Below, piece after piece: positions 1,762 through 53,508 of a stretch of 64,000 nt of DNA. The translations under genes and the position numbers were made by a program. The stretch spans positions 1 through 64,000 of IMG/VR virus record IMGVR_UViG_3300027804_003215; one strand, written 5' to 3'. The notes under the pieces were generated by a model, which ran no database searches, was not told the DNA's origin, and saw nothing but the letters and a program-made list of their open reading frames with translations. The stretch comes from a virus. Within the stretch, counting starts at the first letter, position 1; the number at the start of each line of letters is the position of its first letter.

Positions 1762-2224
1762 AGGAACCTGAGCAATGTTTTTTTCCATCTAAACCTGGCA
1801 TACGACCTTTACACACTTGAACTCCGTAACCCGAACTATATGCAGAAGGATAAACTTTGAATTTTGCTTTTGCCGCTGCTTTACCTCTAGAACAAAGTTT
1901 GGTTCCTGTTTTTTTTCTACCTTCTGTCATGTCCACCATTTCACCCTCATCTTCATGGTCTTTACCTTTAATTTGATTCATCATGAAATCAAAAACTTGG
2001 TCTAAGTTTTCTTTTGCCACAGTGATGTGGTCGGCAGCCCAATCATGACCATTTAATAGAATGTCGTCTATTACTTCAGGATTTAATTCTAAAAGTAAAT
2101 TAGCTTGACGGATTAATTGTTCTAAATTACTGAAGAACATGTAATTTGGAGATTCCTGCTCTTTTAAAACTTTATTCACAAGTCTTGAAATATCGCTTTC
2201 TGTTAATTTAACTATCTTTTTCAT
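1754..2224 (-). CDS. Hypothetical head-associated protein with C-terminal basic AKAKFKVYPSAY domain
   Basis: N-terminal KKIVKLTESDISRLVNKVLKEQ leader; the C-terminal domain pattern is common in large phages. Confidence 0.6.
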   Translation of the reverse strand: MKKIVKLTESDISRLVNKVLKEQESPNYMFFSNLEQLIRQANLLLELNPEVIDDILLNGHDWAADHITVAKENLDQVFDFMMNQIKGKDHEDEGEMVDMTEGRKKTGTKLCSRGKAAAKAKFKVYPSAYSSGYGVQVCKGRMPGLDGKKHCSGSYC

Positions 2225-3716
2225 TTACTACATTAAAGGTTAATTGTCTTTTATAAGTATCTTTCTCTCCTGAAGTATTCACTTGAATATCTACATAATA
2301 TTGATTTGGAATTTTATCTCTCATATCAATCATGAAATAATATTCATTGGGCGTTCTATTAATTGGTGTCCAATCTTGTACTTGAACTTCAGTTGTGCCC
2401 TCTTTAACATAAACTCGGTAGAAGGCTGTAACACCGTCTAAAGGTTGTTGTCCTGTGTAGGCTTTCTTAATTGTAACTCCAACCTTTCTTATGTCTGAAT
2501 TTATAATATTTTCATTTTGTAAAATACCATAAATATCAAAACCAAATTTTTCAGGCTCATGACTACTAACACCAATCTGTATTCCCGCTGAGTATTCTTG
2601 AAGAACAAATTGATTTTTGACGTTTCCCAAAGATTGTCCGTTTATTTTCAAATTTGACCAAACATCATAGAACATACATGGTGTTGGTGAACCTGTAAAT
2701 GAGTTCGGAATAATGCACTCATAAACTCCTCTTGTTCTTAAACAAGTTGTCAAACCTGACAAATTATTATAAACCGTTCCATCTCTTTGTTGGATTGTTA
2801 CTAAAGGTAATTCATCTAAATTAACAGCATCTCCGTTCTGATATATGTAAAGGTAAAGTTTGTTAACTTGGTTTTTCAAAAATCTATTTCTATCATCTTG
2901 AATTAAATCGTCATAGGTTGTAAGAAGGAACGGTTGATAAAAAGTTTGTGTATGTCTTGAGAAGAAGGCAACGCTGTAACTATCAGTCAGACCTGATATA
3001 TTCTCGATAGCAGGAAGATAAGCAATACCCCATCCTGTAACTCCTGTTAGGGTTCCGTTAAGAATGGAATTTATCTCGTTGCTCATATTCATGTTTATAT
3101 CCTCATTACCGAACTCAAAATGTTGGGTGGCTATTATGGTCAACCCTGAGAAATTAACCAAACCTTGGTTCTTATTATTGTATACACCAGGTTCTGACCA
3201 GTTGGATACAGTCTGAGTTTGAAACCAATTGGATGGTCTTAATGAATAGGCTCTTGGGTCCACGTAAGTTAAGGGGTTTGAACCACCAACTGCAGAATTT
3301 CTCGCTAAATTGAAGTCGTTGTAGTCATATCCCACACCTTCATCCCAAGTTTGAGTGTTTCCTGTAGTTCCTGATGTTTTTGGAATTCTAAACAAAATCA
3401 AATCAAATGAGCTTGCTCTTCTTCTGTCATTAGACATGAATGTGTTGAGTAACTCGTTGTCGAAAGAAGATGTGTTGGTCATTTTCAATGTGTGCGTCAT
3501 AGCAGATGTACAGCCTGTCGAAATAACTCCACTTTGTATGTTTTCAATCAACAAGTCTAAATCAAGGTCAAATAATATACGGGAAAAACCAAAATTAGGT
3601 ACAGCAATGTAGGAAGCTCCAAAGTTTAATTCCATAACAGGGTTTCTACCTGTATTAACTAAAGAATTCGAAACTATGGTGTTATTTTTATCTACGTATG
3701 ACCTTAAAACTGACAT
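2208..3716 (-). CDS. Putative virion structural protein (502 aa)
   Basis: Beta-rich, S/T/N-rich, W.EG.GYDY motif; TATTTAT upstream; 7 [ST]GxT motifs. Confidence 0.6.
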   Translation of the reverse strand: MSVLRSYVDKNNTIVSNSLVNTGRNPVMELNFGASYIAVPNFGFSRILFDLDLDLLIENIQSGVISTGCTSAMTHTLKMTNTSSFDNELLNTFMSNDRRRASSFDLILFRIPKTSGTTGNTQTWDEGVGYDYNDFNLARNSAVGGSNPLTYVDPRAYSLRPSNWFQTQTVSNWSEPGVYNNKNQGLVNFSGLTIIATQHFEFGNEDINMNMSNEINSILNGTLTGVTGWGIAYLPAIENISGLTDSYSVAFFSRHTQTFYQPFLLTTYDDLIQDDRNRFLKNQVNKLYLYIYQNGDAVNLDELPLVTIQQRDGTVYNNLSGLTTCLRTRGVYECIIPNSFTGSPTPCMFYDVWSNLKINGQSLGNVKNQFVLQEYSAGIQIGVSSHEPEKFGFDIYGILQNENIINSDIRKVGVTIKKAYTGQQPLDGVTAFYRVYVKEGTTEVQVQDWTPINRTPNEYYFMIDMRDKIPNQYYVDIQVNTSGEKDTYKRQLTFNVVNEKDS

Positions 3717-3735
3717 TAGACTTTTTTAATAAATA

Positions 3736-9512: not shown

Positions 9513-9513
9513 A

Positions 9514-12568: not shown

Positions 12569-13546
12569 TTAATTTTTATAATAGTTTATCCAATGTTCTA
12601 TCATTTCGTCTAACATAGTTTCAAAGTTATAATCGGGCGTCCACCCTGTGACCTTTTTTAACTTTGAACAATCCCCTTTCAAATTATTAAGTTCTTCTGG
12701 TCTCAAAAATTTTTCATCCAATTTTACATACATTTTGTAATCCAAATCAAGTTTTCTAAAAACATATTCACAAAGTTCTTTTACCGAGTGAGAAATTCCT
12801 GTAGAGCAAACAAAATCATCTGATTGTTCTTGTTGTAAAATTAACCACATGGCTTTAACAAAGTCTTTAGCGTGTCCCCAATCTCTTGTGGCATCCAAAT
12901 TACCTAATTTCAATTCGTTTGATAATCCAAGTTTTATTTTAACAGCTTCTTTACAGACTTTGTTTGTTACAAAATTTGTTCCTCTTCTTGGTGATTCGTG
13001 ATTAAACAAAATACCATTCGAGATGAACATACCGTATGAGTTTCTATAGTTTCTACAAATGTTATAAGAAAAAACTTTTGCACACCCATAAGGAGAAACT
13101 GGATTCATTGGGGTTGTTTCCCTCTGAAATCCATCATGGTCAATACAATTACCAAACATCTCTGATGATGATGCTTGATATATTTTTATATTCTTATCAA
13201 CAAGTTTAACTGCTTCTAAAATATTGAGTGTACCAAGTCCAGTAACATTTGCGGTGTAGATAGGTTGGTCGAAAGAAATTCTAACATGTGATTGTGCTGC
13301 TAAATTATAAATTTCGGATGGTTTACATTTTTGTATAACTGTTATGAGAGAAGATAAATCTGTAAGGTCGGCATAATGAAGTTTAATTTTGGAAAAAATC
13401 TTTTCTAATCTGGCTGTCTGATTTTCTGAAACAGAGTTTCTTTTCAAGGTTCCGTGGACTTCATAACCTTTTTCCAATAAAAATTCGGCCAAGTATGAAC
13501 CGTCTTGACCATTAATGCCCGTGATAAGTGCAATTTTATTTGTCAT
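12569..13546 (-). CDS. gmd: GDP-mannose 4,6-dehydratase
   Basis: ALITGINGQDGSYLAE, NLAAQSHV, QASSSEMFG, SPYGCAK, LFNHESPRRG, RDWGHAKD. Confidence 0.97.
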   Translation of the reverse strand: MTNKIALITGINGQDGSYLAEFLLEKGYEVHGTLKRNSVSENQTARLEKIFSKIKLHYADLTDLSSLITVIQKCKPSEIYNLAAQSHVRISFDQPIYTANVTGLGTLNILEAVKLVDKNIKIYQASSSEMFGNCIDHDGFQRETTPMNPVSPYGCAKVFSYNICRNYRNSYGMFISNGILFNHESPRRGTNFVTNKVCKEAVKIKLGLSNELKLGNLDATRDWGHAKDFVKAMWLILQQEQSDDFVCSTGISHSVKELCEYVFRKLDLDYKMYVKLDEKFLRPEELNNLKGDCSKLKKVTGWTPDYNFETMLDEMIEHWINYYKN

Positions 13547-13547
13547 T

Positions 13548-14333
13548 TTAATTTAGTCTAACGTAATTTAATTTTGAATTTGAAAAAATCGAAAACGTAG
13601 ATAAATTTGATGTTGTACAAAAAAGTTTTTTTGTTTTTCCGAGGCCGACAGCACCAAACACAATTTCTTGAATATGTTTTTTGATTGAATCTTCATTGTT
13701 GTGCTGTTTGAAAAAAGGGAGTTTTTCATCGTTTGAAGAAAAATCATCAAACGTTATCAACCTTTCCCCGTAACGCTCCGAAAATTGATTTTTATCTTGA
13801 ATGTTGTCTGACATTAAAAATATGTTTTCGAATTCTTCTTTATCTAATATATCAAAAATTTGTGATAATTGAATTGTTGTTAAATTATGAACGGTCTCCA
13901 TGTCTGTGGCACGTCTGTGAAAACCAATTGTATTTTCAAAATTTATTTGTGGAAACCTTGAATAAAACAAATATTCCATTTTCTCATTAAATAAAAAATG
14001 TTTTTTGATTATTTCCTCGGTCATTTCTAGATTTTCTTTCGAAAATGTTTTTGAGTTATAAGGGTCTAAACTAGTTTTTAGACTTAGTGACTCAATATCT
14101 ACGTAACTTTTTTTGTGTTCAAGCCAGTCTTGTTTGTCTTGAAGAAAACATATATCATAGATGTTTCCCTTACCGTATCCATAGATGTCTTCCAAATCAT
14201 AATATATTTTGAAAGTTTCATTTGGAAACGTCAGGTATAAATTTTGAATATGTACAACGGCCTCCGTGATGTAAGAAAAATAACCTCTTTGATGAATGTC
14301 CTTACCTCTTGCCGGTTTAAAAAACCTTAACAT
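13548..14333 (-). CDS. Putative fucosyltransferase-like glycosyltransferase (NodZ/GT23/O-FucT-like GT-B)
   Basis: RGYFS start, IGFHRRATD (HxRxTD donor-binding), IFLMSD, SNLS. Confidence 0.55.
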   Translation of the reverse strand: MLRFFKPARGKDIHQRGYFSYITEAVVHIQNLYLTFPNETFKIYYDLEDIYGYGKGNIYDICFLQDKQDWLEHKKSYVDIESLSLKTSLDPYNSKTFSKENLEMTEEIIKKHFLFNEKMEYLFYSRFPQINFENTIGFHRRATDMETVHNLTTIQLSQIFDILDKEEFENIFLMSDNIQDKNQFSERYGERLITFDDFSSNDEKLPFFKQHNNEDSIKKHIQEIVFGAVGLGKTKKLFCTTSNLSTFSIFSNSKLNYVRLN

Positions 14334-14335
14334 CC

Positions 14336-15499
14336 TTATTGGTATTTTAATAATATCTCACAAACTCTATCGATATCTTCATTGGTCATTTTGTCGTGGT
14401 TCGGAACATAAATTCCTCTCTCATCTATAATTGAACAATTAGGAAGTTTTTTCTCACCATAAAGTTTTTTGTAAAACGGTTGTGTTCCCATGGAACCAGA
14501 TATTAATGGTCTACAAGCAATGTTGTTGTCCTGTAAATCTTTAACTAAATTTTCTTTGTCTTCGCTAGATTTTGTAATCACAGGAATTGCGAAGTTGGAT
14601 GTGAATTCGTTTTCGAATGATTTTGGAAACCAAATTTTACCGTCCAATTTTGATTTATAATAAAGAAAATTATTATATCTGTTTTGTATCATCCCATCAA
14701 CTTTGTCAAGTTGTTGAAGTCCTATTTGGGCTTGTAAATCCGTACTACGAAGATTAAAACCGGGAATATAAAAAGTATAAAGAGCTGAAAAATTTGTTAC
14801 ATCCCAAGCTGAACGTAGTTCCTTTTGTTTATCTTCGGTTAAATCTCTGTCCCAACCATGACTTCTTAATTGAAGTAATGTTTCATATACCTCTTTATTA
14901 TTTGTTGAAATCATTCCCCCTTCTATGGTCGACATGGTGTGTCCAAAGTAAGTTGAGAATGAAGTCATAAGACCAAAGTTTCCAAGTTTTACATTTTCGA
15001 ATTTTGTGCCTTGTGACTCACAATTGTCCTCCAATAAAATGACATCATATTTTTCACAAAGTTCAGTGATTTTTTTGATGTTTGGGGATAGACCAAGAAC
15101 GGAAACTAAAATAAGAACAGAAGGACTTTCCTTAATAAAAATTTCTTCTAAGTGTTCCAAATCAACTGAGAGATTATCCAAATTACAATCCACTAATAAA
15201 GGTTCCATATCGAATTGTAACACAGGTGCTAAGTCAGTTGCCCAACATAATGAGGGAACACAAACTTTGTTATTTTTCATTTTATTCAAAACTTTCAATG
15301 CGTACAACATCAAAAGATTTGCAGAGGAACCAGAGTTTACAAAAACAGAATATTTGGTTCCTAACCAATTTGACCATTTGGATTCAAACTCTAAGGTCTT
15401 TGAGCCTTTTGTTAATCTTGGATAAGTTTTTAACCATTCTATTAGAGAATCAATGTCTTTGTTATCAATAGTATCTTGAATTAAATCAATACGTTTCAT
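14336..15499 (-). CDS. colD: GDP-4-keto-6-deoxy-D-mannose 3-dehydratase (ColD-like PLP enzyme, DegT/DnrJ fold)
   Basis: VNSGSSANL, EDNCES, SHGWDR; in STYFGHTMSTIEGG a His occupies the position of the Schiff-base Lys of aminotransferases; no Fe-S insertion. Confidence 0.75.
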   Translation of the reverse strand: MKRIDLIQDTIDNKDIDSLIEWLKTYPRLTKGSKTLEFESKWSNWLGTKYSVFVNSGSSANLLMLYALKVLNKMKNNKVCVPSLCWATDLAPVLQFDMEPLLVDCNLDNLSVDLEHLEEIFIKESPSVLILVSVLGLSPNIKKITELCEKYDVILLEDNCESQGTKFENVKLGNFGLMTSFSTYFGHTMSTIEGGMISTNNKEVYETLLQLRSHGWDRDLTEDKQKELRSAWDVTNFSALYTFYIPGFNLRSTDLQAQIGLQQLDKVDGMIQNRYNNFLYYKSKLDGKIWFPKSFENEFTSNFAIPVITKSSEDKENLVKDLQDNNIACRPLISGSMGTQPFYKKLYGEKKLPNCSIIDERGIYVPNHDKMTNEDIDRVCEILLKYQ

Positions 15500-16419
15500 T
15501 TTCTTAATGTATTATAATTTTTTATAAACCAATCAATAGTTTCATTAATACCAACATTAATATCTGTGAGTGAAAAGTCCATCGGTATGTCAGAAATAGC
15601 AGGTTTTCTAAACTGACCTCTTGGTTTGGATGCATCGAAAAACAATTTATCTTCGCTGATTTCGAATTTTTTCACGACCATCTTTACAATGTCCATCACA
15701 GAATGTTCTTGAGCATTTACTGCCATAAATGGAACCTCTGATTTCCAATTTTCGATAGCCCAAAGAATAATTCTCGCAAGGTCTCTCGAATGAATAAATT
15801 GTCTCAATGGTGTTCCATCTCCCCAAACTACAAAGTCCTCATTTTTTTCTTTGCAGTGATATGCTCGGTAAATAATGCCAGGAATCATGTGGCTGTGGTC
15901 AGGATGAAAGTTATCATGTGGACCATAAACGTTCGTTGGAACCACGTTAATCCAATTTCTACCTGTGAGATTTCTTATGATTTTTGTTTGATAACCTGAA
16001 AGTCTTTTCGCATACGAATATCCGTGATTTGATGGATGTGGTGGTGCAATGTCAATTTGGTCTGCGGTAAGAGGGTAGGTGATATTGGAATCTGGAAATA
16101 TACATGTAGATGATAAGTTTACGAAGTTTTCCACTCCTGAGGCAAAAGCCGCAGTAATCACGTTGTGATTAATTTTATAATTTTCTTCGAAAAATAATTC
16201 GTTGTTATTTGAATTTGCTTGGACACCCCCGACTTTGGCTGCACAGTGAATTATGGTGTCAACTCCATTATTTTTTACATTTTTAGTTATGTAATTAAGA
16301 GTGTTCTCTTCATTTTTGAGGTCTGCGTCTTTTCTTGTGTGGTAAACATGTCCATCACCTAAGATTTCTTTGAGTGCATTTCCTAATAATCCATTTGAAC
16401 CTGTTACTAAAACTTTCAT
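15496..16419 (-). CDS. fcl: GDP-L-fucose / GDP-L-colitose synthase (epimerase-reductase, Fcl/ColC)
   Basis: TGSNGLLG, AAKVGG, SSTCIFP, YSYAKR, PTNVYGPHDNF, WGDGTPLRQFIH. Confidence 0.9.
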   Translation of the reverse strand: MKVLVTGSNGLLGNALKEILGDGHVYHTRKDADLKNEENTLNYITKNVKNNGVDTIIHCAAKVGGVQANSNNNELFFEENYKINHNVITAAFASGVENFVNLSSTCIFPDSNITYPLTADQIDIAPPHPSNHGYSYAKRLSGYQTKIIRNLTGRNWINVVPTNVYGPHDNFHPDHSHMIPGIIYRAYHCKEKNEDFVVWGDGTPLRQFIHSRDLARIILWAIENWKSEVPFMAVNAQEHSVMDIVKMVVKKFEISEDKLFFDASKPRGQFRKPAISDIPMDFSLTDINVGINETIDWFIKNYNTLRK

Positions 16420-17198
16420 AATTTAATCCAATTTTTACAATACAAATCTTCAGTTCTGAAGCTGGCGTATGCTGGTCCAAACCATTTTTTTGGAATGATA
16501 ACTGTTGTGTTTTCGTTTTTGTTCAACCAAGCTGCCCACCAACTGAATGTAGAATTTGCAATTATGTTATTTTTACACATAGACATGAGATATAAATCTT
16601 CGTAGTCTGAGTTGTTTGAAACCAAAGTTTTATTTTCTATGAAATCAAAATTTTGTTTACACCAATTTAAATCATCTGAAAAAATTAGAAAATGTTTTTC
16701 TTTTCCGATTTTTTCTACAGCTTCGATATAATATTCAATTGGTTGTGTTGGATGATGATTTGGTAATCCGACGTAATCACCACGTCTTACGTGAATTGAA
16801 CAAGTATCTTGATTAAGAATTTCACCGTATTTTTTTAATAGTCTATTTGATGTATGTTCATCTATTTCAAATAGTTCTAAGATTTCATTTCTATAGTCAG
16901 AAAAATATTTTTCACTTTGAAAGTGTCCAATCAATTTCACATTACCCCCTATCTTCGGAATTGGATAAAATTCAAATCCTCTTTCACCGTGATGTTGCAT
17001 TTGTGGGAGTTTGTCTGAAAATTCAATTTTTCTCAAAATATTGTTTACATAAGCGCTGAATGGTTTGTGTGGAATTACCATTTCTCTTGTGTCACAAATA
17101 AATTTTTTACCATCTCTTAATGAAACTGCGTAAGCGGTGGCTATTTGAAATAAAACGTTCCCGAGACCCCCCATCAATTTTGTAGATACTATTTCCAT
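16416..17198 (-). CDS. Alpha-1,2-fucosyl/colitosyltransferase (GT11)
   Basis: GGLGNVLFQ, FQSEKYF, HVRRGDY, FSDD, IIANSTFSWWAAWL. Confidence 0.92.
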   Translation of the reverse strand: MEIVSTKLMGGLGNVLFQIATAYAVSLRDGKKFICDTREMVIPHKPFSAYVNNILRKIEFSDKLPQMQHHGERGFEFYPIPKIGGNVKLIGHFQSEKYFSDYRNEILELFEIDEHTSNRLLKKYGEILNQDTCSIHVRRGDYVGLPNHHPTQPIEYYIEAVEKIGKEKHFLIFSDDLNWCKQNFDFIENKTLVSNNSDYEDLYLMSMCKNNIIANSTFSWWAAWLNKNENTTVIIPKKWFGPAYASFRTEDLYCKNWIKL

Positions 17199-17998
17199 TA
17201 TATTGTCTTTGAAACAAAGTCTTTGATTGTGTTTTCTATTCTCGCTCTATGGTCATTGTATTTCATAGACTCAAGGTAATTGTGTTCAACGTGCTCTAAC
17301 ATACTATTATAGGTGGTTGGATTAAGACCCTTACACACGTCGACTAGTTCATCCAAATTTTTGACGTGGAAAAAACCTCTTTTATCAAAGAAGTCTCCAA
17401 TATTTTCACAACCTATATAAATGGGAATAGTCTTAGTTTGAAAACAATCAATTAATTTTTCTGTAAACCAGTTATTTGAAAAAACATTTTCTACAACAAT
17501 ATGGAATTGAGAATAAAAAAGTTCGTTCTTCCAAACATTACTTTTCATGGTTCTAAAGTTTGTTCCATGAGAGAATGATGAATTAATACTGTTATAGATA
17601 TGATAGGGTATGTTATCAATTGCAGTCAATGCTTGTGGAATGGAATGACGTAATACGTGTCCAGCACACTGAGTTTTTCCACCAATCAAAGTTGTAATAC
17701 AAAACTCTTTTTCTGCGAAATCAAAATCTTTAATCCAAGTTGTTCCATATGGAAAAAGTTTTGCATTTGGGCATGATTTTAAAATATTTTCATCCCAAGT
17801 AAGAATCAAATCGAATTTGTCACAATTATTAATTGCAGCTTGTCTGAAACCAGAAACTTCATTTGGTTCAATAGTCCATAAAACTCTAATTGCATTCTTC
17901 GGAGTGCTTGGAATTATGTCAACATAAAGTTCACAAGGAACATGGGTTTGAAAATGGATATCCAAACCGAAGTTTGCAATAATTGATAAATTGTGCAT
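17198..17998 (-). CDS. GT10-like (alpha-1,3/4-fucosyltransferase) glycosyltransferase; start revised to MHNLSII
   Basis: FHIVVEN..NNWFTEKLIDCF..TIPIYIG GT10 motif. Confidence 0.7.
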   Translation of the reverse strand: MHNLSIIANFGLDIHFQTHVPCELYVDIIPSTPKNAIRVLWTIEPNEVSGFRQAAINNCDKFDLILTWDENILKSCPNAKLFPYGTTWIKDFDFAEKEFCITTLIGGKTQCAGHVLRHSIPQALTAIDNIPYHIYNSINSSFSHGTNFRTMKSNVWKNELFYSQFHIVVENVFSNNWFTEKLIDCFQTKTIPIYIGCENIGDFFDKRGFFHVKNLDELVDVCKGLNPTTYNSMLEHVEHNYLESMKYNDHRARIENTIKDFVSKTI

Positions 17999-18002
17999 AT
18001 TA

Positions 18003-18773
18003 TTATTTTTTTGTCCAAAATATTCCACATTGGTCAACCACAGTCATAGGTTCATCAAAAGAATTGTCCTTTCTGAATTTTTCAACCGCGTTTTTGCAAT
18101 TTGGAATACAATAATCATCGATTATTACACGACCTCCTGAAACTACTTTATGATAACAGGAGTCAAAAACATCCATAGTGGATTTGAACATATCACCATC
18201 CATTCTCAAAATACTCAATTTTTCAATTTGAGGATTGTTTGGTAAGGTGTCTTCAAACCAACCTTCTAAGAAAATAACACTCTCATCCAACGCACCATAC
18301 ATCTCAAAATTATTTTTTACTTGAGCTAGTGATACTCTTAAGAAGTCTATAGTGTGATGAGGGTCACCTTCATCTTCTTTTACTTTTGGAGGTGGTAAAC
18401 CTCTGAATGAATCTGCAACAAAAACCTTTTTGTTCATGCCGTAGAGTTCGAAATATTTCCTAGCAAAAATCGAAGCACCACCTCTCCATACACCAGTTTC
18501 TATGAAGTCTCCTTCAATATTATTTTCTCTTACATAGTCTAAAGACTCGTGAAGATTTTCCATTCTTTTCAGACCAATCATGGTGTGGGCAAATTGAGGC
18601 CAATCTCTTCCAGTAAGTCTTTCTCCTTGAACTGGCTGAGAAACAATTGATTCCATAATTTCGTCTGAAGGATAGACCCCATTACTAAAAAAAGAATTTT
18701 TTATCGAGTCACTTCCTACCGAATCAATTAGTACTCTCTGAATGAACAAAAGTTTTAATCTTATATTTTCCAT
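18003..18773 (-). CDS. TylF/MycF/NovP-family sugar O-methyltransferase
   Basis: TMIGLKR, GDFIETGVWRGG, ADSFRGLP, GWFEDTLP, LRMDGD, IIDDY. Confidence 0.93.
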   Translation of the reverse strand: MENIRLKLLFIQRVLIDSVGSDSIKNSFFSNGVYPSDEIMESIVSQPVQGERLTGRDWPQFAHTMIGLKRMENLHESLDYVRENNIEGDFIETGVWRGGASIFARKYFELYGMNKKVFVADSFRGLPPPKVKEDEGDPHHTIDFLRVSLAQVKNNFEMYGALDESVIFLEGWFEDTLPNNPQIEKLSILRMDGDMFKSTMDVFDSCYHKVVSGGRVIIDDYCIPNCKNAVEKFRKDNSFDEPMTVVDQCGIFWTKK

Positions 18774-18774
18774 A

Positions 18775-19326
18775 TTAATTTCTTTTAATTATAGTTAATC
18801 CATTATTGTTTTTGAAAATCTCGTGTATGGTCCACTCAGGATTTTTTTCCAAGAACTCTTCAATAGCAGGCCATATACCAACTTCACTGTTAATTTCACC
18901 CACAGTTCTGAAAGTTTCTGTATCATGAAAAACGATGTATTTTTTTACTTTTTTCGAGTGAACTTCTAATTCAACTTTTATTTGGGGATATGTGTGTAAA
19001 GTATCGATGAATAACAAATCACATTCAGGAATGTCGACAGTCCTACTATCTGATAAAATAAATGAGAAGTCAATTCCTCTTTCTTTTGATGAGGTTTCAA
19101 CAAGTGGTAAATCTGTCGAATTATATTCTGAAGGATTTTTATAATCTACTGAGATTAATTTTTTTGGGTTACCTGACAAAAATGCCCAAGTAGAGACAAT
19201 AGTTCTTACTCCCATTTCCACAATAGTTTCACATTCTTCGGCATATTTTTTAAGAGTTGGAAGATGTTCGTTGATATCACTTGGAGTCATTTTCTTCCTT
19301 TCGTACATTAATTCAATTTGGTCCAT
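18775..19326 (-). CDS. Class I SAM-dependent methyltransferase (Methyltransf_24-like)
   Basis: SDINEHLP, VEMGVR, DLLFIDTLH, FHDT, NNGLT. Confidence 0.85.
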   Translation of the reverse strand: MDQIELMYERKKMTPSDINEHLPTLKKYAEECETIVEMGVRTIVSTWAFLSGNPKKLISVDYKNPSEYNSTDLPLVETSSKERGIDFSFILSDSRTVDIPECDLLFIDTLHTYPQIKVELEVHSKKVKKYIVFHDTETFRTVGEINSEVGIWPAIEEFLEKNPEWTIHEIFKNNNGLTIIKRN

Positions 19327-19327
19327 T

Positions 19328-20017
19328 TTATATTAATTTATGTTTAGTTTTTACGTGGTTAATTTCGTCCCACATGTTTTTATTATACATACTCGAAATT
19401 TGGTGAGGATGCATTCTATTAGTTATTAAAATATTAGGTACAATTATTGGAAGTCCATATCTTCTGTAAAGTTGATAGTACATTTCGCAGTCCATTAACA
19501 TTACAAGGTCTTCATCAAATAAACAAGGGTCGTTATTGATAAAAGACAAAACTGAAGGGGAACTTATTGTGTTAGTTCCCGTGGCAATATTTGAGTTCCA
19601 ATAAGGAACCATAAAATTTGAAAACGTTTTTCCATCATCATGAGTGTGATTACAACCATTTACAACCCACTTAGCTCCGTTTTCGAATTCTTTTATGATT
19701 TTTTCCAAAGCGGTTTCGTCGTAAAAAAAATCATCTTGAAAAATTATTTTGACTATGTCTCCTTTCGAATTTTTAATTGCATTATTTGTGTTCGCGGGAC
19801 CGTTTCCAAGTTTATCTTGATTTTTAAAATAGTTTATTTCGAAATAATTTTTATATTCCGAACATAAAATTTCTATTTCTGAATTTTTACTGTGGTCTGA
19901 AACTACAACTTCAAAATTTTTATAAGTTTGTTTTGAGATTTTATCTAAATTGTTTTTCAAAAATTCTATCCCTCTTCCAAACTGCTCCCACGTAGGTATA
20001 CAAATCGAGACTTTCAT
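19328..20017 (-). CDS. Glycosyltransferase family 2
   Basis: VSICIPT, QTYKNFEVVVSDHS, FQDD. Confidence 0.9.
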   Translation of the reverse strand: MKVSICIPTWEQFGRGIEFLKNNLDKISKQTYKNFEVVVSDHSKNSEIEILCSEYKNYFEINYFKNQDKLGNGPANTNNAIKNSKGDIVKIIFQDDFFYDETALEKIIKEFENGAKWVVNGCNHTHDDGKTFSNFMVPYWNSNIATGTNTISSPSVLSFINNDPCLFDEDLVMLMDCEMYYQLYRRYGLPIIVPNILITNRMHPHQISSMYNKNMWDEINHVKTKHKLI

Positions 20018-20018
20018 T

Positions 20019-20729
20019 TTATAATTTAGAATATGGTTTTTTGGCCCTGATTTTATTCACCGTTTGTGTAACATTTGCCATGTTCACCTTATGGTCATTA
20101 AGAGGGTTTGATTCGTTATAAATGTATAAAATGTCAGGTAAAAATCTATAATGTTCCTCTCCCGACATTTCTAACATTGGAAACATGAATGCTAAGTCTC
20201 CTGCCACATTCCAATAATTTCCTTTCTCGTCTTTCAAATCTTCTAATTCAATTTTTTTCCAAAGCCAAGATTTCCATGTTCGTAAATGAGAAAGAGTGAA
20301 AACTTCCCGTCTCACATTCGTATATCGTGTCGGAGGGTTTGCAAAACCAGGTCTTCCGTCGTGATACTTGAAAGAGCCACTGGTCATCCAAACGTTTGGG
20401 TCTTTGTAAACCTCGGAAATTTTTTCTAAAACTTTCGGGTTTGGGAGCCAGTCATCCCCATCAATTTCAACACAGATTTCTTCACCATCAAGAGCTCTAA
20501 ACCGTATTACTTGGTCATAGTTTCCTGGTTGATAAAACTTGCAATGATTTTCTATTAGAATAAATCTATTGTCATCTTTAATTGCAAATTTAATTTTTTC
20601 AACTGTTTTATCAGTAGACATATCATCTGTTATATAACATTTGAAGTCCTTGAAACTCTGAGACATAATTGAAAAAATACATCTTTCAATAAATTTCTCG
20701 CAGTTGTATGTAGTCGTTAAAATAGTCAT
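20019..20729 (-). CDS. Glycosyltransferase family 2
   Basis: TTYNCEKFI, DDMSTD, EIDGDDWL. Confidence 0.9.
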   Translation of the reverse strand: MTILTTTYNCEKFIERCIFSIMSQSFKDFKCYITDDMSTDKTVEKIKFAIKDDNRFILIENHCKFYQPGNYDQVIRFRALDGEEICVEIDGDDWLPNPKVLEKISEVYKDPNVWMTSGSFKYHDGRPGFANPPTRYTNVRREVFTLSHLRTWKSWLWKKIELEDLKDEKGNYWNVAGDLAFMFPMLEMSGEEHYRFLPDILYIYNESNPLNDHKVNMANVTQTVNKIRAKKPYSKL

Positions 20730-27654: not shown

Positions 27655-27669
27655 ACAAATTCTTTATAC

Positions 27670-27696: not shown

Positions 27697-27705
27697 CATA
27701 AGTTT

Positions 27706-31971: not shown

Positions 31972-33069
31972 ATGCCTAATTTACCTATATCCCAATTACC
32001 ATTAGCAGTTTCAGGACAACCTGAATCTTGGATGGCGATTGTAAACTACGATGTTGACCCATCAGGGATTACAAATAAAATATATTTTTCATCATTAACA
32101 GAACAATTTTCAGGTTCAACGGGAACGTCAGGTACTTCAGGAACAAGTGGAATAGACGGAACATCTGGTACGAGCGGAATAGATGGTACATCTGGAACAT
32201 CCGGTTCATCTGGAACAAGTGGAATAGACGGAACTTCAGGAACATCTGGTTCATCAGGAACAAGTGGAATAGACGGAACATCTGGTACGAGCGGAATAGA
32301 TGGTACATCAGGAACATCTGGAACAAGCGGAGTAGACGGTACTTCAGGAACATCTGGTTCATCAGGTACATCTGGAACAAGTGGAATAGACGGAACATCT
32401 GGTACGAGCGGAATAGATGGTACATCTGGAACAAGTGGAATAGACGGAACTTCAGGAACATCTGGTTCATCAGGAACAAGTGGAATAGACGGAACTTCAG
32501 GAACATCTGGTTCATCAGGAACAAGTGGTACTTCAGCACCAACACCACCTTTTGCACTTGTTTACGGTTTATTTGCACAAACCGCAGATAGTACTACCAT
32601 AAGTGCGACTACAGTTGAGACTTCACTTATTAATGGTGGTGTGGGTACTTTAAGTGTTCCTGCAAATGGATTTTCTGTTGGTGATAGTTTCAGAGCAGAT
32701 TTCGGGGGCATAATAACGGCAGCAAATAATCAAACCATTGATTTGAGAGTAAAAACGGGTTCGGTCGTTTTAGCGGATAGTTTAGCCCAACCTATTACAA
32801 ATATCACAAATAACGTTTGGTCTCTTTCAATAAACTTCACAATAAGAGCAACTGGTACTACAGGTGTTGCATCAATAGTGACTTTGGGAACATTCAATTA
32901 TACAAAAACTGTAAATGGAACTATTGAGGGATTTTCATTCAATACCGTGAATAATACAACATTTGATACGACCGTAAGCAATACATTGGATGTAACATTA
33001 CAGTGGGGAAGTGCGAATGCCGGTAATTTAGTTTACAGTGATATTTTCGTCTTGAATAAAATTTATTGA
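31972..33069 (+). CDS. Collagen-like fibre protein (proline-free Gly-X-Y) with C-terminal globular domain
   Basis: 47 uninterrupted Gly-X-Y triplets (GTS, GID, GSS); N-terminus [10 protein letters not shown]. Confidence 0.75.
32113..32535 (+). repeat. Coding repeat of 47 Gly-X-Y triplets
   Basis: Counted directly from the translation; recurring DNA blocks such as ggaacaagtggaatagacgga. Confidence 0.95.
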
Positions 33070-34972: not shown

Positions 34973-36241
34973 ATGAACAAAATTTTTATTCAAATCGCAT
35001 CTTACAGAGACCCACAGCTTGTTCCAACAATTAAAGATATGTTGGCAAATGCCAAAAAACCTGAAAACCTTGTCATAGGTATTGCAAGACAATATTCTGA
35101 AACTGATGGTTTTGATAACTTGGATGAATGGAAAGATGATAAAAGATTCAGAATTTTGAATATCCCATACCAAGAAGCAAAGGGTGTTTGTTGGGCAAGA
35201 CACTTAGTTCAACAACTTTATAAAAATGAAAAGTATACAATGCAAATAGATTCTCATATGAGATTTGAAAAGGATTGGGATGATTCTTTAATAAAAATGA
35301 TTAAGGGTCTACAAAAGGACGGGTACAAAAAACCTCTACTTACGGGTTACGTACCTTCCTTTGACCCTGACAACGACCCCGCAGGGAGAGCAAAAGATGC
35401 TTGGAGAATGGTATTCGATAGATTTATCCCTGAAGGGGCTGTTTTCTTTTTACCCGAAACAATACCAGGTTGGAGAGAAATGACAAAACCTGTAACTGCA
35501 AGATTTTATTCAGCACATTTTTGTTTCACTTTGGGTGAGTTCTCTAAAGAAGTTCAACACAATCCTGAATATTATTTTCATGGCGAAGAGATTTCAATAG
35601 CGGCGAGAGCTTACACGTGGGGATACGACTTATTTCATCCACACATTCCTGTTGTATACCATGAGTATACTCGTAAAGGAAGAACAAAGCAGTGGGATGA
35701 CGATAAAACATGGGGGGATAAAAACAAACATTCACATCTGACAAATAGAAAATTATTTGGTATGGATGGTGAGAAACAAGAAGGTCATGATGGTCCGTAC
35801 GGATTCGGAACGGTAAGAACCTTAAGAGATTACGAAAAATATTCGGGTTTGTTGTTTGAAAAAAGAGCGGTACAAAGATATACATTAGACAAAAATTACC
35901 CTCCAAATCCTTATAATTACGAAAATGAAGAATCTTGGAAAAAAGATTTTGCTTCAGTTTATAAACATTGTATTGACGTTGGATATTCAAGTGTTCCTGA
36001 AAAGGATTATGATTTTTGGGTAGTTGCTTTCCACGGACCGAACGATGAAACATTGTTTAGAAAAGATGCGGATAAAAACGAGATTGCCAGAATGATGAAT
36101 GACCCAGACAAATATTGTAAAATTTGGAGAGAATTTCAAACAGACGTTCTTCCGAAATATTGGGTTGTATGGCCTCACTCTGAATCAAAAGGTTGGTGTG
36201 ATAGATTAACGGGACAACTAAACCACAATCACGTAAGTTAA
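34973..36241 (+). CDS. GT60-like polypeptide/hydroxyproline N-acetylglucosaminyltransferase with C-terminal extra domain
   Basis: IFIQIASYRDPQL, AKGVCWAR, MQIDSHMRFEKDWD (DxH), FHGEEI..AARAYTWGYDLFHP: signatures of the Skp1 GlcNAc-transferase (GT60) family. Confidence 0.8.
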   Translation: MNKIFIQIASYRDPQLVPTIKDMLANAKKPENLVIGIARQYSETDGFDNLDEWKDDKRFRILNIPYQEAKGVCWARHLVQQLYKNEKYTMQIDSHMRFEKDWDDSLIKMIKGLQKDGYKKPLLTGYVPSFDPDNDPAGRAKDAWRMVFDRFIPEGAVFFLPETIPGWREMTKPVTARFYSAHFCFTLGEFSKEVQHNPEYYFHGEEISIAARAYTWGYDLFHPHIPVVYHEYTRKGRTKQWDDDKTWGDKNKHSHLTNRKLFGMDGEKQEGHDGPYGFGTVRTLRDYEKYSGLLFEKRAVQRYTLDKNYPPNPYNYENEESWKKDFASVYKHCIDVGYSSVPEKDYDFWVVAFHGPNDETLFRKDADKNEIARMMNDPDKYCKIWREFQTDVLPKYWVVWPHSESKGWCDRLTGQLNHNHVS

Positions 36242-50292: not shown

Positions 50293-53200
50293 ATGGCAAC
50301 AACAACTGTAAACCAAAAAGTTTATGTTTCACCTGGCGTCTATACTTCTGAGACCGACTTATCATTTGTGGCTCAAAGCGTTGGTGTAACAACATTAGGT
50401 TTGGTAGGAGAGACTATAAAAGGTCCTGCTTTCGAACCCGTTTTCATAACAAACTATGATGAGTTTCAAGCCTTCTTTGGAGGAACTGAACCAGTGAAGT
50501 TTGTAAATACACAAATTCCAAAGTACGAGGCTGCATATATTGCAAAATCTTACTTACAACAATCAAACCAACTTTTTGTAACGAGAGTGTTGGGATTGTC
50601 TGGTTACGACGCGGGTCCGTCTTGGAGCATTTCCTTGGTGGCAAATCCTGACCCAACAACAATTGATATTGACACAGGAGTTGCTGCAATCAATTTTACA
50701 AGTGCGTTCTCAGGAAACACTGGAGGAACAGTAAATTTCTCAAGTTTACCAGCGGTAATTGCAACAAACTTCAACAGTCTTTATACTTTGAATGATGGTA
50801 GTACTTCTACCTTCAATAACGATTTTACAGATGCATTATTATCTGTATTCTCTAATAACAGTTTATCAGGTAACACAGCATTTGCTTGGGGAGCAATTCC
50901 AAGTTCAACTTACTTCAACGTATTAGGTGCAGGATATACTGGTTTCACAAACGAGTTCAGTGTTGATAATGTAAACTTAGACAATAATGATTTGTCTGCG
51001 GGAGACAATGATGCATGGTACTACGCTAACTTTGATTTACAAACAGGTAATGATTATGGTGGATACTCATTTTATTGGGCAATCAATCAAATGATTAATC
51101 CAAGTGCTGGAATTTTCTCAGGAACTGTATCAGGAACAATTTTTACATATTCGGGAAGTGCATATAGTGAGTGGAATAACATGGTTGTTGCAACACTTCG
51201 TTCAAGAGGTATCTCTTTATTTACAAACAGTTCAACAAGTCAAAACCACGGACCAATTTATGAGGTGACTGGATTGACTGATGTTGATTTAGTTTGTAAC
51301 GGTCAATACACAGGGGTTACACAAAATCCTTTTTCTCTTTTTGGAATCTCAGGTGTTACTAAAGACGGTGATACTTTCCAATTTGAAACTTCATTACAAT
51401 CAACATCTTCTGAATTCATTACGAAAGTATTAGGTGTTGACAACTTTGGTAAACCAAGAAACGAGGTTCCTCTATTTGTTGAAGAAATTTATTCAGGTTC
51501 TTTAACATATGGTTATAATCTGAGTTATATTAGAGGATTAAATTGTAATTTGATTGCGTTACCAGGTGCTAGACCTGAAACAGGAACTCCTTCAAGTTCT
51601 TCTATTGCTTGGAAACTTCAAAAATATCAATCTCCAAAAACACCTTTCATTGTTTCTGAATTAAGAGGTAATAAGGTGTATGATTTGTTTAGATTTATAT
51701 CTATATCTGATGGAGATGCTGCAAACTCGGAGGTAAAAGTTTCTATTGCTAATATGTCATATAATAATATGACTTTCGATATTTTGATTAGAAATTTCTT
51801 TGACACAGATGCTAATCCTGTCGTAATTGAAAAGTTCACCAATTGTACAATGGACCCAGGTTCTAACAACTTCGTTGCTAAGAAAATTGGTTCTTCGGAT
51901 GGTGAGTTTGCATTAATCTCAAGATATGTGATGGTTGAAATGGCTGAAAACGCTCCAATCGACGCATTACCTTGTGGATTTAATGGTTACACTCAAAGAA
52001 TTTATGAAAGTACTACAAATCAAGGACCAAACATTGTTTACAAAACAAGATATTTTTATCCTCAAGAAACAATATGGAATCCTCCATTTGGAAATACATC
52101 AGGTGGACCTAATACTACTTTAGCACCTGGTGATGTTATAAGAAGAACATATTTAGGTTTTTCATCTTACTATGGTATTGATGATTCTTTCCTACAATAT
52201 TTGGGACAACAAAATCCTCAAATTGATTGGGCTGATACAACTGAATCTATTCCTTGGAACGGACTTACAAAAGGTTTCCATATGGACTCAGGTGCTACTG
52301 TAATTTCAATTGGAAATATCTACACAACTAGCGGTCAACCGGCATATGAGTGTGGTGTTGCTAATTTTACAGCTGACCCTGAAACTCAAGAAAACCCTTA
52401 CTACTTCATCTATTCAAGAAAATTCACAGTATGTTTTGCTGGTGGATTTGATGGATGGGACATTTATAGTGAACATAGAACAAATGAAGACAGGTTCCAA
52501 CTCGGAGCGTCAGGTTACTTAGCTGGGGCGGCACCTTCTGTAAGATATCCAAATGCAACAGGTCAAGGATTGTTCAAGAGAATTGTTGTAGAAAACAATA
52601 CTCAAGACTTCGCTAACACTGACTACTACGCTTATTTGTTGGGTATTTTGACATACCGTAACCCTGAATCAACTAACATTAACGTTTTCGCAACTGCAAG
52701 TATCGACTACGTAAATAACTCTAACTTGTGTGAAGAAGCAATCGACATGATACAGTTCCAAAGAGCTGACTCTGTTTATATTGTTACTACACCTGACTAC
52801 GATATGTATAGTCCTGATGGAAGTGACGCACTACAAATTATTTACCCTCAGGAGGCTGTAGATAATTTGGATAACACAGGAATTGACTCTAACTATACTT
52901 CAACTTACTATCCTTGGATTTTAACAAGGGATACTGTTAACAACACACAAATCTATCTACCAGCAACTGGTGAGGTTTGTAGAAACTTAGCTTTGACTGA
53001 CAACATTTCCTTCCCTTGGTTCGCAACAGCGGGTTACACAAGAGGTTTGGTAAATTCCATCAAAGCGAGAGTTAAGTTGACACAAGAAGATAGAGATACT
53101 CTTTATCAAGGTAGAATTAATCCTATCGCAACATTTGCTGATGTAGGAACCGTAATTTGGGGTAATAAAACACTACAAGTTGCAGATACCGCACTTAACA

Positions 53201-53508
53201 GATTAAACGTAAGAAGATTGTTGTTACAAGCTCGTAAATTAATTTCAGCGGTAGCGGTTAGATTGTTGTTCGAACAGAACGACCAAATCGTGAGACAACA
53301 GTTCTTGGATAGTGTGAACCCAATCCTCGATGGAATTAGAAGAGATAGAGGTCTTTACGATTTCCGTGTAACAGTTTCTTCTTCTCCTGAAGATTTGGAC
53401 AGAAACACATTAACAGGTAAAATTTACCTTAAACCAACGAAAGCTCTTGAGTTCATTGATATTGAATTCTTTATCACACCAACAGGAGCTTCGTTCGAAA
53501 ATATCTAA
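50293..53508 (+). CDS. Contractile tail sheath protein with large insertions
   Basis: VSPGVYTSETDLS, GPAFEP, PWFATAGYTRG, RDTLYQGRINPI, WGNKTLQ, RLNVRRLL, KPTKALEFI. Confidence 0.95.
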   Translation: MATTTVNQKVYVSPGVYTSETDLSFVAQSVGVTTLGLVGETIKGPAFEPVFITNYDEFQAFFGGTEPVKFVNTQIPKYEAAYIAKSYLQQSNQLFVTRVLGLSGYDAGPSWSISLVANPDPTTIDIDTGVAAINFTSAFSGNTGGTVNFSSLPAVIATNFNSLYTLNDGSTSTFNNDFTDALLSVFSNNSLSGNTAFAWGAIPSSTYFNVLGAGYTGFTNEFSVDNVNLDNNDLSAGDNDAWYYANFDLQTGNDYGGYSFYWAINQMINPSAGIFSGTVSGTIFTYSGSAYSEWNNMVVATLRSRGISLFTNSSTSQNHGPIYEVTGLTDVDLVCNGQYTGVTQNPFSLFGISGVTKDGDTFQFETSLQSTSSEFITKVLGVDNFGKPRNEVPLFVEEIYSGSLTYGYNLSYIRGLNCNLIALPGARPETGTPSSSSIAWKLQKYQSPKTPFIVSELRGNKVYDLFRFISISDGDAANSEVKVSIANMSYNNMTFDILIRNFFDTDANPVVIEKFTNCTMDPGSNNFVAKKIGSSDGEFALISRYVMVEMAENAPIDALPCGFNGYTQRIYESTTNQGPNIVYKTRYFYPQETIWNPPFGNTSGGPNTTLAPGDVIRRTYLGFSSYYGIDDSFLQYLGQQNPQIDWADTTESIPWNGLTKGFHMDSGATVISIGNIYTTSGQPAYECGVANFTADPETQENPYYFIYSRKFTVCFAGGFDGWDIYSEHRTNEDRFQLGASGYLAGAAPSVRYPNATGQGLFKRIVVENNTQDFANTDYYAYLLGILTYRNPESTNINVFATASIDYVNNSNLCEEAIDMIQFQRADSVYIVTTPDYDMYSPDGSDALQIIYPQEAVDNLDNTGIDSNYTSTYYPWILTRDTVNNTQIYLPATGEVCRNLALTDNISFPWFATAGYTRGLVNSIKARVKLTQEDRDTLYQGRINPIATFADVGTVIWGNKTLQVADTALNRLNVRRLLLQARKLISAVAVRLLFEQNDQIVRQQFLDSVNPILDGIRRDRGLYDFRVTVSSSPEDLDRNTLTGKIYLKPTKALEFIDIEFFITPTGASFENI

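What the first reader, a model, noticed from the sequence alone, without database searches (positions are those of the whole stretch)
2208..53508. [S/T]-G-x-T motif strongly enriched in structural proteins: a possible glycosylation sequon
Manual counts outside low-complexity repeats: about 7 in the 502 aa protein (STGCT, TSGTT, TTGNT, FSGLT, LTGVT, ISGLT, LSGLT), about 14 in the 27706 protein, 3 in the 168 aa protein, 3 in the collagen protein, 6 in the 412 aa protein and 7 in the sheath. Six of the sheath copies cluster in the roughly 230 aa N-terminal insertion, which is expected to be surface-exposed. I found none in the DNA polymerase, SNF2 helicase or dUTPase although these contain SG/TG dipeptides. 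S-A-x-T variants (SAMT, SATT, SAGT, SAST) also occur. Unrelated folds sharing one short motif suggests selection for an enzyme-recognition site. It differs from the Bacteroidota host O-glycosylation motif D-[S/T]-[A/I/L/M/V/T].
Basis: partly seen in the sequence, partly recalled or inferred. Interest (0 to 1): 0.85.

Follow-up and report, generated by a model that had tools for sequence, protein, structure and literature searches.

The report
Enriched S/T-G-x-T motif in virion proteins
A four-residue motif, Ser/Thr-Gly/Ala-x-Thr, is far too common in the particle proteins of this uncultured freshwater jumbo phage, and across related and unrelated phages it appears only where one phage-specific glycosyltransferase gene is present, so it is a credible but unproven sugar-attachment site.

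Summary
The collagen-like protein is not enriched (3 against 4-6 expected).

In an unbiased scan of about 38,000 three-residue patterns over the masked proteome, SGxT, TGxT and SAxT rank 1, 2 and 3. Non-virion proteins sit at expectation (4 against 4.3). T4 and three other phages show nothing.

Specificity is sharp:
- Position 0 takes only S or T, not N or D.
- Position 1 takes only G or A.
- Position 3 takes only T, not S, V or I.

The enrichment is a lineage trait. It appears in three lineages that carry a homologue of the GT-B glycosyltransferase at 23832-25043, including an otherwise unrelated 735-kb phage. It is absent from four related contigs that lack the gene, where the orthologous sheath has 0 sites.

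The GT60-like enzyme does not track the motif. It tracks TPTPT mucin-like linkers instead.

Some copies are structural repeat signatures (SprB repeats, a Cys-domain). Glycosylation itself is untested.

The parts
2208..3716 (-). 502-aa protein with 7 [ST]GxT sites plus 1 SAxT. CBM-like jelly-roll followed by two Ig-like domains. More than 3400 homologues.
   Evidence: Counts and shuffles. Homologues. AF2 model pLDDT 86. Fold matches 8wab_B Z 16.5 and 7vbo_A Z 13.8. All 7 sites lie in loops 1-5 residues before a beta strand (DSSP).
27580..31404 (+). 1274-aa Thr-rich protein with 14 [ST]GxT sites, long TPTPT-type linkers and a repeated Cys-domain (CSG[VT]T..DAC.C).
31419..31925 (+). 168-aa protein with 3 sites (weak excess, p about 0.02).
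31972..33069 (+). Collagen-like tail-fibre protein with 3 sites. Not enriched once composition is controlled.
   Evidence: Pfam Collagen and PHROG tail fibre. Shuffles 3 vs 3.8-6.2.
33662..34900 (+). 412-aa Thr-rich protein with 6 sites. It shares the Cys-domain and TP linkers with the 1274-aa protein.
50293..53508 (+). Tail sheath, 1071 aa, with 8 sites. Seven lie in residues 140-356 and one at 666; none lies in the conserved C-terminal core.
   Evidence: Pfam sheath domains. Counts. Orthologue conservation and turnover. Comparison with GT-less lineages.
23832..25043 (-). Candidate enzyme: 403-aa GT-B (Glycos_transf_1 / GT4-like) glycosyltransferase. Its presence tracks the motif enrichment.
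   Evidence: Pfam. Phyletic pattern. Independent lineage LR756501. Virus-only clusters.
20726..22354 (-). 542-aa fusion of Glyco_tranf_2_5 with a GT4 N-terminal domain. Second gene with the same phyletic pattern among relatives, but absent from LR756501.
   Evidence: Pfam..
34973..36241 (+). GT60-like (PF11397) glycosyltransferase. Not linked to the motif; co-occurs with TP-rich mucin-like linkers.
   Evidence: Pfam E 8e-68. Homologues in Xoo-sp13, XacN1, CM1 and RAS14. No enrichment there. TP linkers.
12569..20729 (-). Sugar-nucleotide and glycan-extension cluster: GDP-mannose dehydratase, DegT aminotransferase, epimerase, GT11, GT10, TylF-type methyltransferases and two GT2 enzymes. Possible source and extenders of the glycan. 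Absent from the G006-type enriched lineage.
   Evidence: Pfam. Distribution.

Best explanation
S/T-[G/A]-x-T is a short linear motif kept by selection in exposed loops of virion-module proteins of this uncultured jumbo myophage. It usually sits just before a beta strand.

The most likely reason is that it is the recognition site of a phage-encoded cytoplasmic protein glycosyltransferase, which O-glycosylates one of its hydroxyl residues before or during assembly. The best candidate initiating enzyme is the GT-B protein at 23832-25043, perhaps working with the GT2_5/GT4 fusion at 20726-22354. The rest of the cluster (GDP-sugar synthesis, fucosyl-type transferases, methyltransferases) could extend and decorate the glycan. 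The GT60-like enzyme at 34973-36241 probably serves a second, separate target, the TPTPT linkers.

Shown: the enrichment, its residue specificity, its restriction to virion-module proteins, its lineage distribution and its co-occurrence with the GT gene.

Inferred: that the motif is an enzyme site, that the modification is a glycan, which residue is the acceptor, and which enzyme acts.
For: - Enrichment is robust to global and local shuffles and ranks 1-3 of about 38,000 patterns.
- O/E is about 3.5 in virion-module proteins and 1.0 in enzymes.
- The carriers share no sequence homology apart from the 1274/412-aa pair.
- The specificity profile is sequon-like. S 5.0 and T 3.9 but N 0.86 and D 1.5 at position 0. 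G 4.45 and A 2.9 only at position 1. T 4.45 but S 0.75, V 1.2 and I 1.0 at position 3.
- Sheath orthologues keep 4-12 sites, with turnover of positions in the N-terminal part.
- In the 502-aa family the counts are lineage-structured, 0-1 against 2-8.
- Related contigs with a GT1b homologue have S[GA]xT O/E 2.5-4.3 (G006, G025, G023, G017, own). G003 is also enriched (2.5) but carries only the GT2_5 homologue in its fragment. Those without have 0.5-1.3 (G007, G008, G020, G001).
- The syntenic GT-less phage G007 has 0 sites in its sheath, its 502-aa homologue and its 1274-aa homologue. Sheaths of the GT-less G009 and G010 also have 0, against 6 and 11 in G006 and G023.
- Only 2 of 85 own ORFs show this phyletic pattern.
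- The 735-kb phage LR756501 carries a GT1b homologue. Within its sampled 229 kb that is the only ORF of G006's 403 with hits in both the own contig and LR756501. It also shows SGxT 41 vs 11.7.
- In the G006 lineage the motif sits in a different sequence context ([ILV]-S-A-[REKD]-T-[DE] in large proteins). That argues against a single fold-specific cause.
- Precedent: jumbo phage XacN1 has virion glycoproteins and its own glycosyltransferases (PMC5852040).
Against: - No chemical evidence of any modification.
- The GT correlation rests on about three independent lineages and on mostly incomplete contigs. Other genes of the unsampled two thirds of this genome could co-vary equally.
- G002 carries both GTs yet shows only 12 vs 9, although it holds few virion genes.
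- ESCO13, with a 28%-identical GT, shows no enrichment.
- The same tetrapeptide is part of purely structural repeats: SprB ([ST]GGTxPY), BspA-type LRRs in related phages (IPSGVTSIG) and the CSGxT Cys-domain.
- All mapped sites lie at loop-to-strand junctions, which also fits a structural role.
- Solvent exposure on the assembled virion could not be computed.
- These glycosyltransferases could instead modify DNA or host glycans.
Confidence: 0.45

Rival explanations
1. Structural motif. S/T-G/A-x-T is a favoured loop-to-beta-strand junction (tight turn at Gly, Thr starting the strand) in the particular beta-sandwich, repeat and fibre domains that these lineages happen to use. The excess reflects the domain repertoire, not a trans-acting enzyme.
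For: - All 7 sites of the 502-aa model, and the 4 sites in the usable part of the sheath model, sit at strand ends, hairpin turns or just before strands.
- A hydrophobic residue is favoured at position -1 (40 vs 24.5).
- SprB repeats, BspA-type LRRs and the Cys-domain carry the tetrapeptide as part of their consensus.
- Several sites are positionally conserved over 74-100% identity.
Against: - T4, Xoo-sp13, RAS14 and ESCO13, all rich in beta-sandwich virion proteins, show O/E of about 1.
- Asx-turn equivalents (D, N) at position 0 and beta-branched V or I at position 3 are not enriched.
- Orthologous sheaths and 502-aa homologues fold without the motif. They carry charged residues or partial motifs at the same columns.
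- Enrichment co-varies across unrelated proteins within a genome.
- The G006 lineage shows it in a different sequence context.
Confidence: 0.25
2. The motif is a recognition site for some other trans-acting factor, such as a non-glycan modification, an assembly chaperone or a decoration protein. The CBM-like 502-aa protein is one possibility. The link to the glycosyltransferase is then indirect.
For: The genome-wide, lineage-specific co-enrichment needs a trans factor but does not say which. Only one third of this phage's roughly 300-kb genome is in hand.
Against: - Of the 85 ORFs in hand, only two, both glycosyltransferases, match the pattern.
- Only the GT is shared with LR756501 in the sampled part.
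- The strict need for hydroxyl residues (S/T, and T not V or I) suits O-linked chemistry.
Confidence: 0.15
3. No function. The pattern is a by-product of shared ancestry, local composition and repeats, and the GT co-occurrence is a coincidence of lineage.
For: The enriched relatives G006, G025, G023 and G017 form one lineage with its own gene content; inverse patterns exist for dUTPase and 26370-26837. The motif was first picked by eye.
Against: - It ranks 1-3 in an unbiased scan, p 3e-11 before correction over about 38,000 patterns.
- Local shuffles hold.
- Carriers are not homologous.
- Three separate lineages are enriched, including one that shares only the GT within its sampled part.
- The control tetrapeptides SGxS and SGxV lie at 0.8-1.65 of expectation in all genomes tested, with no split between enriched and non-enriched genomes.
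Confidence: 0.1

Closest known systems
Mycobacteriophage virion O-glycosylation (Freeman et al. 2023, Cell Host Microbe; cited in PMC12619734)
   Same: Phage-encoded glycosyltransferases act in the host cytoplasm on major virion proteins.
   Different: There the glycans sit on C-terminal extensions of the capsid and tail-tube subunits (as summarised in PMC12619734). Here the candidate sites are a defined four-residue motif scattered through internal loops of the sheath, fibre-like and Ig/CBM-like proteins, and nothing has been shown chemically.
Chlorovirus PBCV-1 major capsid protein glycosylation by virus-encoded enzymes (PMC5408694, PMC7019647; listed)
   Same: A virus-encoded glycosylation machinery with unusual, methylated and fucose-type sugars, independent of host pathways.
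   Different: A eukaryotic giant virus. By my recollection its glycans are N-linked. No relation to the enzymes here was tested.
Jumbo phage XacN1 virion glycoproteins (PMC5852040)
   Same: A jumbo myophage with its own glycosyltransferases and at least two glycoproteins detected in the virion. It carries a 47%-identical homologue of this phage's GT60-like enzyme.
   Different: Its relatives Xoo-sp13 and RAS14 show no [ST]GxT excess. They share the TP-rich linkers, not the motif. XacN1 itself was not scanned.
Bacteroidota general O-glycosylation sequon D-[ST]-[AILMVT] (from general knowledge)
   Same: A three-residue O-glycosylation sequon in the probable host phylum.
   Different: It acts in the periplasm on exported host proteins. 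The sequence differs, and no Asp is favoured before the hydroxyl residue here.
SprB repeat (PF13573) and BspA-type leucine-rich repeats
   Same: Both contain [ST]G[GVL]T as part of a structural repeat consensus. The 724-aa protein at 93232-95406 has 5 SprB repeats, and LRR proteins of related phages carry IPSGVTSIG.
   Different: They explain about 10 of about 67 masked copies on this contig. They do not explain the sheath, the 502-aa protein or the N-terminal half of the 1274-aa protein.

Membership tests
Phage-encoded virion protein glycosylation system | Phage genome encodes glycosyltransferases not explained by DNA glucosylation alone | tested here: met
   At least 12 GT domains plus a GDP-sugar pathway and methyltransferases. 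GT1b and the GT2_5 fusion fall in virus-only clusters. A role in DNA or host-glycan modification is not excluded.
Phage-encoded virion protein glycosylation system | Glycan chemically attached to virion proteins | not testable with these tools
   Uncultured phage; no proteomic or mass data.
Enzyme recognition sequon | Motif over-represented after composition control, and only in the substrate class | tested here: met
Enzyme recognition sequon | Motif density co-varies with presence of the enzyme across lineages | tested here: met
   For the GT at 23832-25043: covering about three independent lineages with it and four related contigs without. Correlative, not corrected for phylogeny. For the GT60-like enzyme the same test was not met.
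Enzyme recognition sequon | Sites exposed on the folded or assembled substrate | tested here: inconclusive
   Sites lie in loops next to strands in the 502-aa model. The sheath model is too poor (pLDDT 42). No coordinates were available for accessibility.
Generic ST-turn / Asx-turn structural motif | Asp or Asn can replace Ser or Thr at the capping position; beta-branched residues can replace Thr in the strand | tested here: not met
   In virion-module proteins NGxT has O/E 0.86, DGxT 1.5, [ST]GxV 1.2 and [ST]GxI 1.0, against 3.9-5.0 for the motif.
Tail sheath (gp18-like) | Sheath C-terminal and subtilisin-like domains | tested here: met
   PF17482 meets its curated cut-off (27.1 vs 26.9 bits). 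PF04984 falls below its cut-off (25.1 vs 31.4 bits, E 1.7e-5). tblastn hits to annotated sheaths.
GT60 / PF11397 polypeptide GlcNAc-transferase-like | Match to PF11397 above the curated cut-off | tested here: met
   E 7.6e-68, 230 bits against a cut-off of 21. Activity and acceptor were not tested.
HK97-fold major capsid protein (considered for the 502-aa ORF) | HK97 fold | tested here: inconclusive
   The model is all-beta. Its best matches are CBM jelly-rolls and Ig-like domains. No capsid protein appeared among the matches, which does not exclude every capsid role, such as decoration.

The most novel reading that the evidence does not exclude
A family of phage-specific GT-B glycosyltransferases (prototype 23832-25043) O-glycosylates virion proteins at a defined sequon, S/T-[G/A]-x-T. 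Phage lineages that acquire the enzyme then evolve dozens of sequons across unrelated surface proteins (sheath, fibres, Ig/CBM-like proteins). A second enzyme (GT60-like) separately glycosylates TPTPT linkers. This would be the first defined O-glycosylation sequon for bacteriophage particles, and it would be readable from sequence alone.
Probability: 0.4. Interest if true: 0.85.

Novelty: new variant of a known kind. Interest (0 to 1): 0.74.

Why it matters
Glycosylated phage particles are known from very few systems, and no sequence rule predicts which phage proteins carry sugars. If this motif is a true sequon, glycosylated virions could be recognised directly in metagenomes: motif excess plus the GT gene. 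The enzyme-substrate pair would be easy to test by co-expression. It would also show that gaining one enzyme reshapes the surface sequence of a whole virion. A glycan coat on the sheath and fibres of abundant freshwater phages, with probable Bacteroidota hosts, would bear on particle stability, adsorption and recognition by hosts and grazers.

Tried and rejected
- **DNA-level motif:** rejected. TCAGG-type words are frame-specific to the coding frame.
- **Link to the GT60-like enzyme:** rejected. Xoo-sp13 and RAS14 have it without enrichment.
- **Link to the conserved GT2 (8709-9590) and GT1-like (9514-10569):** rejected. GT1-like is present in every related contig tested. GT2 is present in all four non-enriched contigs and missing from two enriched ones.
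- **502-aa protein as HK97 capsid protein:** not supported by the model.
- **The search for related loci with alignment A1:** failed for lack of conserved stretches.
- **Lineage of the motif-free sister P0127:** not in IMG/VR.
- **PDB sequence searches for both GTs:** nothing useful. NCBIfam gave only sub-threshold hits. A literature search for PF13712 gave nothing.
- **The 502-aa protein and the GT2_5 fusion:** no match in cultured phage records.
- **ESCO13 (28% GT1b-like):** no enrichment.
- **Ser-codon (TCA) bias at the motif:** seen in the own genome but not reproduced in sheath orthologues.
Full report
**What the window is.** The window is the first 64 kb of a single 99,480-bp virus contig with about 34% G+C. 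It encodes:
- a gp18-type tail sheath (50293-53508), a tail tube and a baseplate hub;
- a family-B DNA polymerase and a helicase;
- a very large set of glycan genes: GDP-mannose 4,6-dehydratase, a DegT aminotransferase, an epimerase, GT11, GT10, TylF-type methyltransferases, several GT2 and GT1/GT4 enzymes, a GT60-like PF11397 enzyme, GT25 and HtrL-like proteins.

Homologues of the 502-aa ORF lie on contigs of up to 330 kb, so this is a fragment of an uncultured jumbo myophage. SprB repeats in a tail protein fit a Bacteroidota host. A recent paper describes large freshwater Bacteroidota phages with core glycosyltransferases (PMC12619734); I did not test whether this phage is one of them.

**The observation.**
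- Per-protein shuffles that keep global composition, and shuffles within 20-residue blocks that keep local composition, both leave a strong excess in the 502-aa, 1274-aa, 412-aa and sheath proteins, and a weak one in the 168-aa protein. The collagen-like protein is not enriched.
- Beyond the window, the 364-aa (88218-89312) and 724-aa (93232-95406) proteins are also enriched.
- The motif had been chosen by eye, so I scanned every three-residue pattern of six gapped shapes (about 38,000) on the low-complexity-masked proteome. SGxT, TGxT and SAxT came first, second and third. Without masking, the TPT, TQT and TET linker patterns dominate.
- Virion-module proteins hold 73 sites against about 20 expected. 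The enzyme and replication blocks hold 4 against 4.2-4.5.
- The same scan on 99 kb of T4 and on whole genomes of Xoo-sp13, RAS14 and ESCO13 shows no excess.

**Anatomy of the motif.** Only position -1 adds information: it is hydrophobic in 40 sites against 24.5 expected. Varying one position at a time gives a sharp profile.

| Position | Enriched (O/E) | Not enriched (O/E) |
|---|---|---|
| 0 | S 5.0, T 3.9 | N 0.86, D 1.5, A 0.5 |
| 1 | G 4.45, A 2.9 | all others ≤1.2 |
| 3 | T 4.45 | S 0.75, V 1.2, I 1.0 |

K, R, P, H and W never occupy x, but the numbers are too small to be significant. The pattern is not a DNA word, because the underlying words are frame-specific. The carriers are not homologous by BLAST, apart from the 1274/412-aa pair. 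About ten copies are repeat signatures: [ST]GGTxPY in five SprB repeats and CSG[VTA]T..DAC in a repeated Cys-domain.

**Structure.** With 113 homologues, the 502-aa protein gave a confident model (pLDDT 86, pTM 0.88). It is all-beta.
- Residues 1-270 resemble carbohydrate-binding jelly-rolls (8wab_B Z 16.5, rmsd 2.8, 169 aligned; 7vbo_A Z 13.8).
- Two Ig-like domains follow.
- It is therefore not an HK97 capsid protein, and its place in the virion is unproven.
- All seven sites lie in loops one to five residues before a strand.

The sheath model failed (pLDDT 42). In its only usable part (residues 130-290), sites 140, 143, 192 and 216 lie at a strand end, in a hairpin turn, or at loop-to-strand starts. 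Accessibility could not be computed.

**Evolution within families.**
- Fifty-five distinct sheath orthologues (at least 74% identical) carry 4-12 sites each. Sites 326, 340, 353, 666 and 680 are conserved. Sites in the 129-281 region come and go, and S and T alternate at position 0.
- In 104 representatives of the 502-aa family (28-55% identity), counts are lineage-structured. One large clade has 0-1 and most others 2-8, against 0.2-0.6 expected.
- In that family the sites cluster in a few loops, where motif-poor members carry charged residues.

**The natural experiment.** I fetched whole related contigs and scored S[GA]xT on masked proteomes, counting identical repeat contexts once.

| Contig | GT1b homologue | S[GA]xT observed / expected |
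|---|---|---|
| own | yes | 60 / 15.9 |
| G006 (complete, 295 kb) | yes | 67 / 25.9 |
| G025 | yes | 64 / 20.8 |
| G023 | yes | 48 / 16.3 |
| G017 | yes | 52 / 12.0 |
| G003 | not in fragment (has GT2_5 homologue) | 23 / 9.2 |
| G002 (few virion genes) | yes | 12 / 9.0 |
| G007 (277 kb) | no | 35 / 27.3 |
| G008 (236 kb) | no | 20 / 21.9 |
| G020 | no | 5 / 9.7 |
| G001 | no | 5 / 7.2 |

- The controls SGxS and SGxV lie at 0.8-1.65 of expectation in all genomes, with no split between enriched and non-enriched ones.
- G007 is syntenic with this phage over most genes. Yet its sheath (41% identical), its 502-aa homologue and its 1274-aa homologue have no site at all.
- Sheaths of G009 and G010 also have none, whereas those of G006 and G023 have 6 and 11, at positions different from this phage's.
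- At alignable columns the motif-free sheaths carry partial motifs (V-KQYT, Y-TGDN, D-SRIL). The fold therefore does not need the full motif.

**Which gene goes with it.**
- Of the 85 ORFs of this contig, exactly two have homologues in all four distant enriched contigs and in none of the four non-enriched ones: 23832-25043 (GT-B, Glycos_transf_1-like) and 20726-22354 (Glyco_tranf_2_5 plus a GT4 N-domain) (also over 44 records).
- The conserved GT2 (8709-9590) and GT1-like (9514-10569) do not track the motif. GT1-like is in every lineage. GT2 is in all four non-enriched contigs and missing from two enriched ones.
- As an outside test I searched cultured and deposited phage records. A 36%-identical homologue of 23832-25043 lies in the 735-kb uncultured phage LR756501.
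- In 229 kb sampled around that gene, SGxT is 41 against 11.7 (rank 21 of the scan) and TGxT is 24 against 12.6. The excess is concentrated in large proteins, in the same hydrophobic-SGxT context.
- Of the 403 ORFs of G006, the GT homologue is the only one with hits both in this contig and in that part of LR756501.
- ESCO13, with only a 28%-identical relative, shows nothing.
- Both GTs fall in clusters made up entirely of viral sequences.

**The GT60-like enzyme.** Its homologues (45-50% identical) occur in the jumbo phages Xoo-sp13, XacN1, CM1 and RAS14. Xoo-sp13 and RAS14 have no [ST]GxT excess. They do have many proteins with long TPTPT-type linkers, as this phage does. Seven genomes without the enzyme have none. 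XacN1 virions contain at least two glycoproteins (PMC5852040). This fits a second, mucin-type target for that enzyme, as another note of this scan proposed (e1-6033972).

**Reading.** The excess is real, sequence-specific, restricted to virion-module proteins and lineage-specific, and it travels with one phage-specific glycosyltransferase across about three independent lineages. The simplest account is a recognition site for that enzyme.

Against it:
- No modification has been shown.
- The lineages are few and the contigs mostly partial.
- The tetrapeptide is also part of structural repeats.
- All mapped sites sit at loop-to-strand junctions, which a structural explanation also predicts.

I put the sequon reading at about 0.45, a structural origin at 0.25, another trans-acting factor at 0.15 and no function at 0.1.

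Noticed in passing
window 27580-31404, 33073-33600, 33662-34900; contig 95817-96722: Long TPTPT / TQT / TET mucin-like linkers occur only in genomes that carry the GT60-like (PF11397) enzyme. They are present in this phage, Xoo-sp13 and RAS14, and absent in seven genomes without it. This suggests a second, separate glycosylation target.
   Followed up: partly
window 2208-3716 (-): The highly conserved 502-aa protein (more than 3400 homologues, none in cultured phages) is predicted as a carbohydrate-binding-module-like jelly-roll plus two Ig-like domains. It is not a capsid-fold protein, and its role in the particle is unknown.
   Followed up: partly
all SGxT sites of the 99-kb contig: Ser at position 0 is encoded by TCA in 30 of 36 sites, against 39-42% in other Ser-Gly dipeptides. 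Sheath orthologues show no such difference. This may be a trace of Ser/Thr toggling (TCA/ACA).
   Followed up: partly
related contigs G006, G007, G020 (loci L178-L208, L240-L244): N-G-x-T is about twofold over expectation in these relatives but not in this phage. Their proteomes are also dominated by Cys patterns (CPxC, GCP, CxxHG), which suggests a large family of Cys-motif proteins.
   Followed up: no
related loci L155, L169 (and contigs G023, G025): BspA-type leucine-rich-repeat proteins with repeated IPSGVTSIG / CSGLTSI units sit in the tail-fibre regions of related phages.
   Followed up: no
contig 93232-95406 (L084:13232-15406): A 724-aa tail protein with five SprB repeats (PF13573), a repeat typical of Bacteroidota gliding-motility adhesins. 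This supports a Bacteroidota host.
   Followed up: partly
window 22539-23132 and 26370-26837: The dUTPase-like gene and a 155-aa ORF show the inverse phyletic pattern to the two glycosyltransferases: absent from the G006-type lineage and present in all four non-enriched contigs.
   Followed up: no
related contig G003, 38390-39421 and 39608-39952 (L142): A 343-aa protein with 8 motif copies lies directly upstream of a fragment of a GT60-like gene.
   Followed up: no
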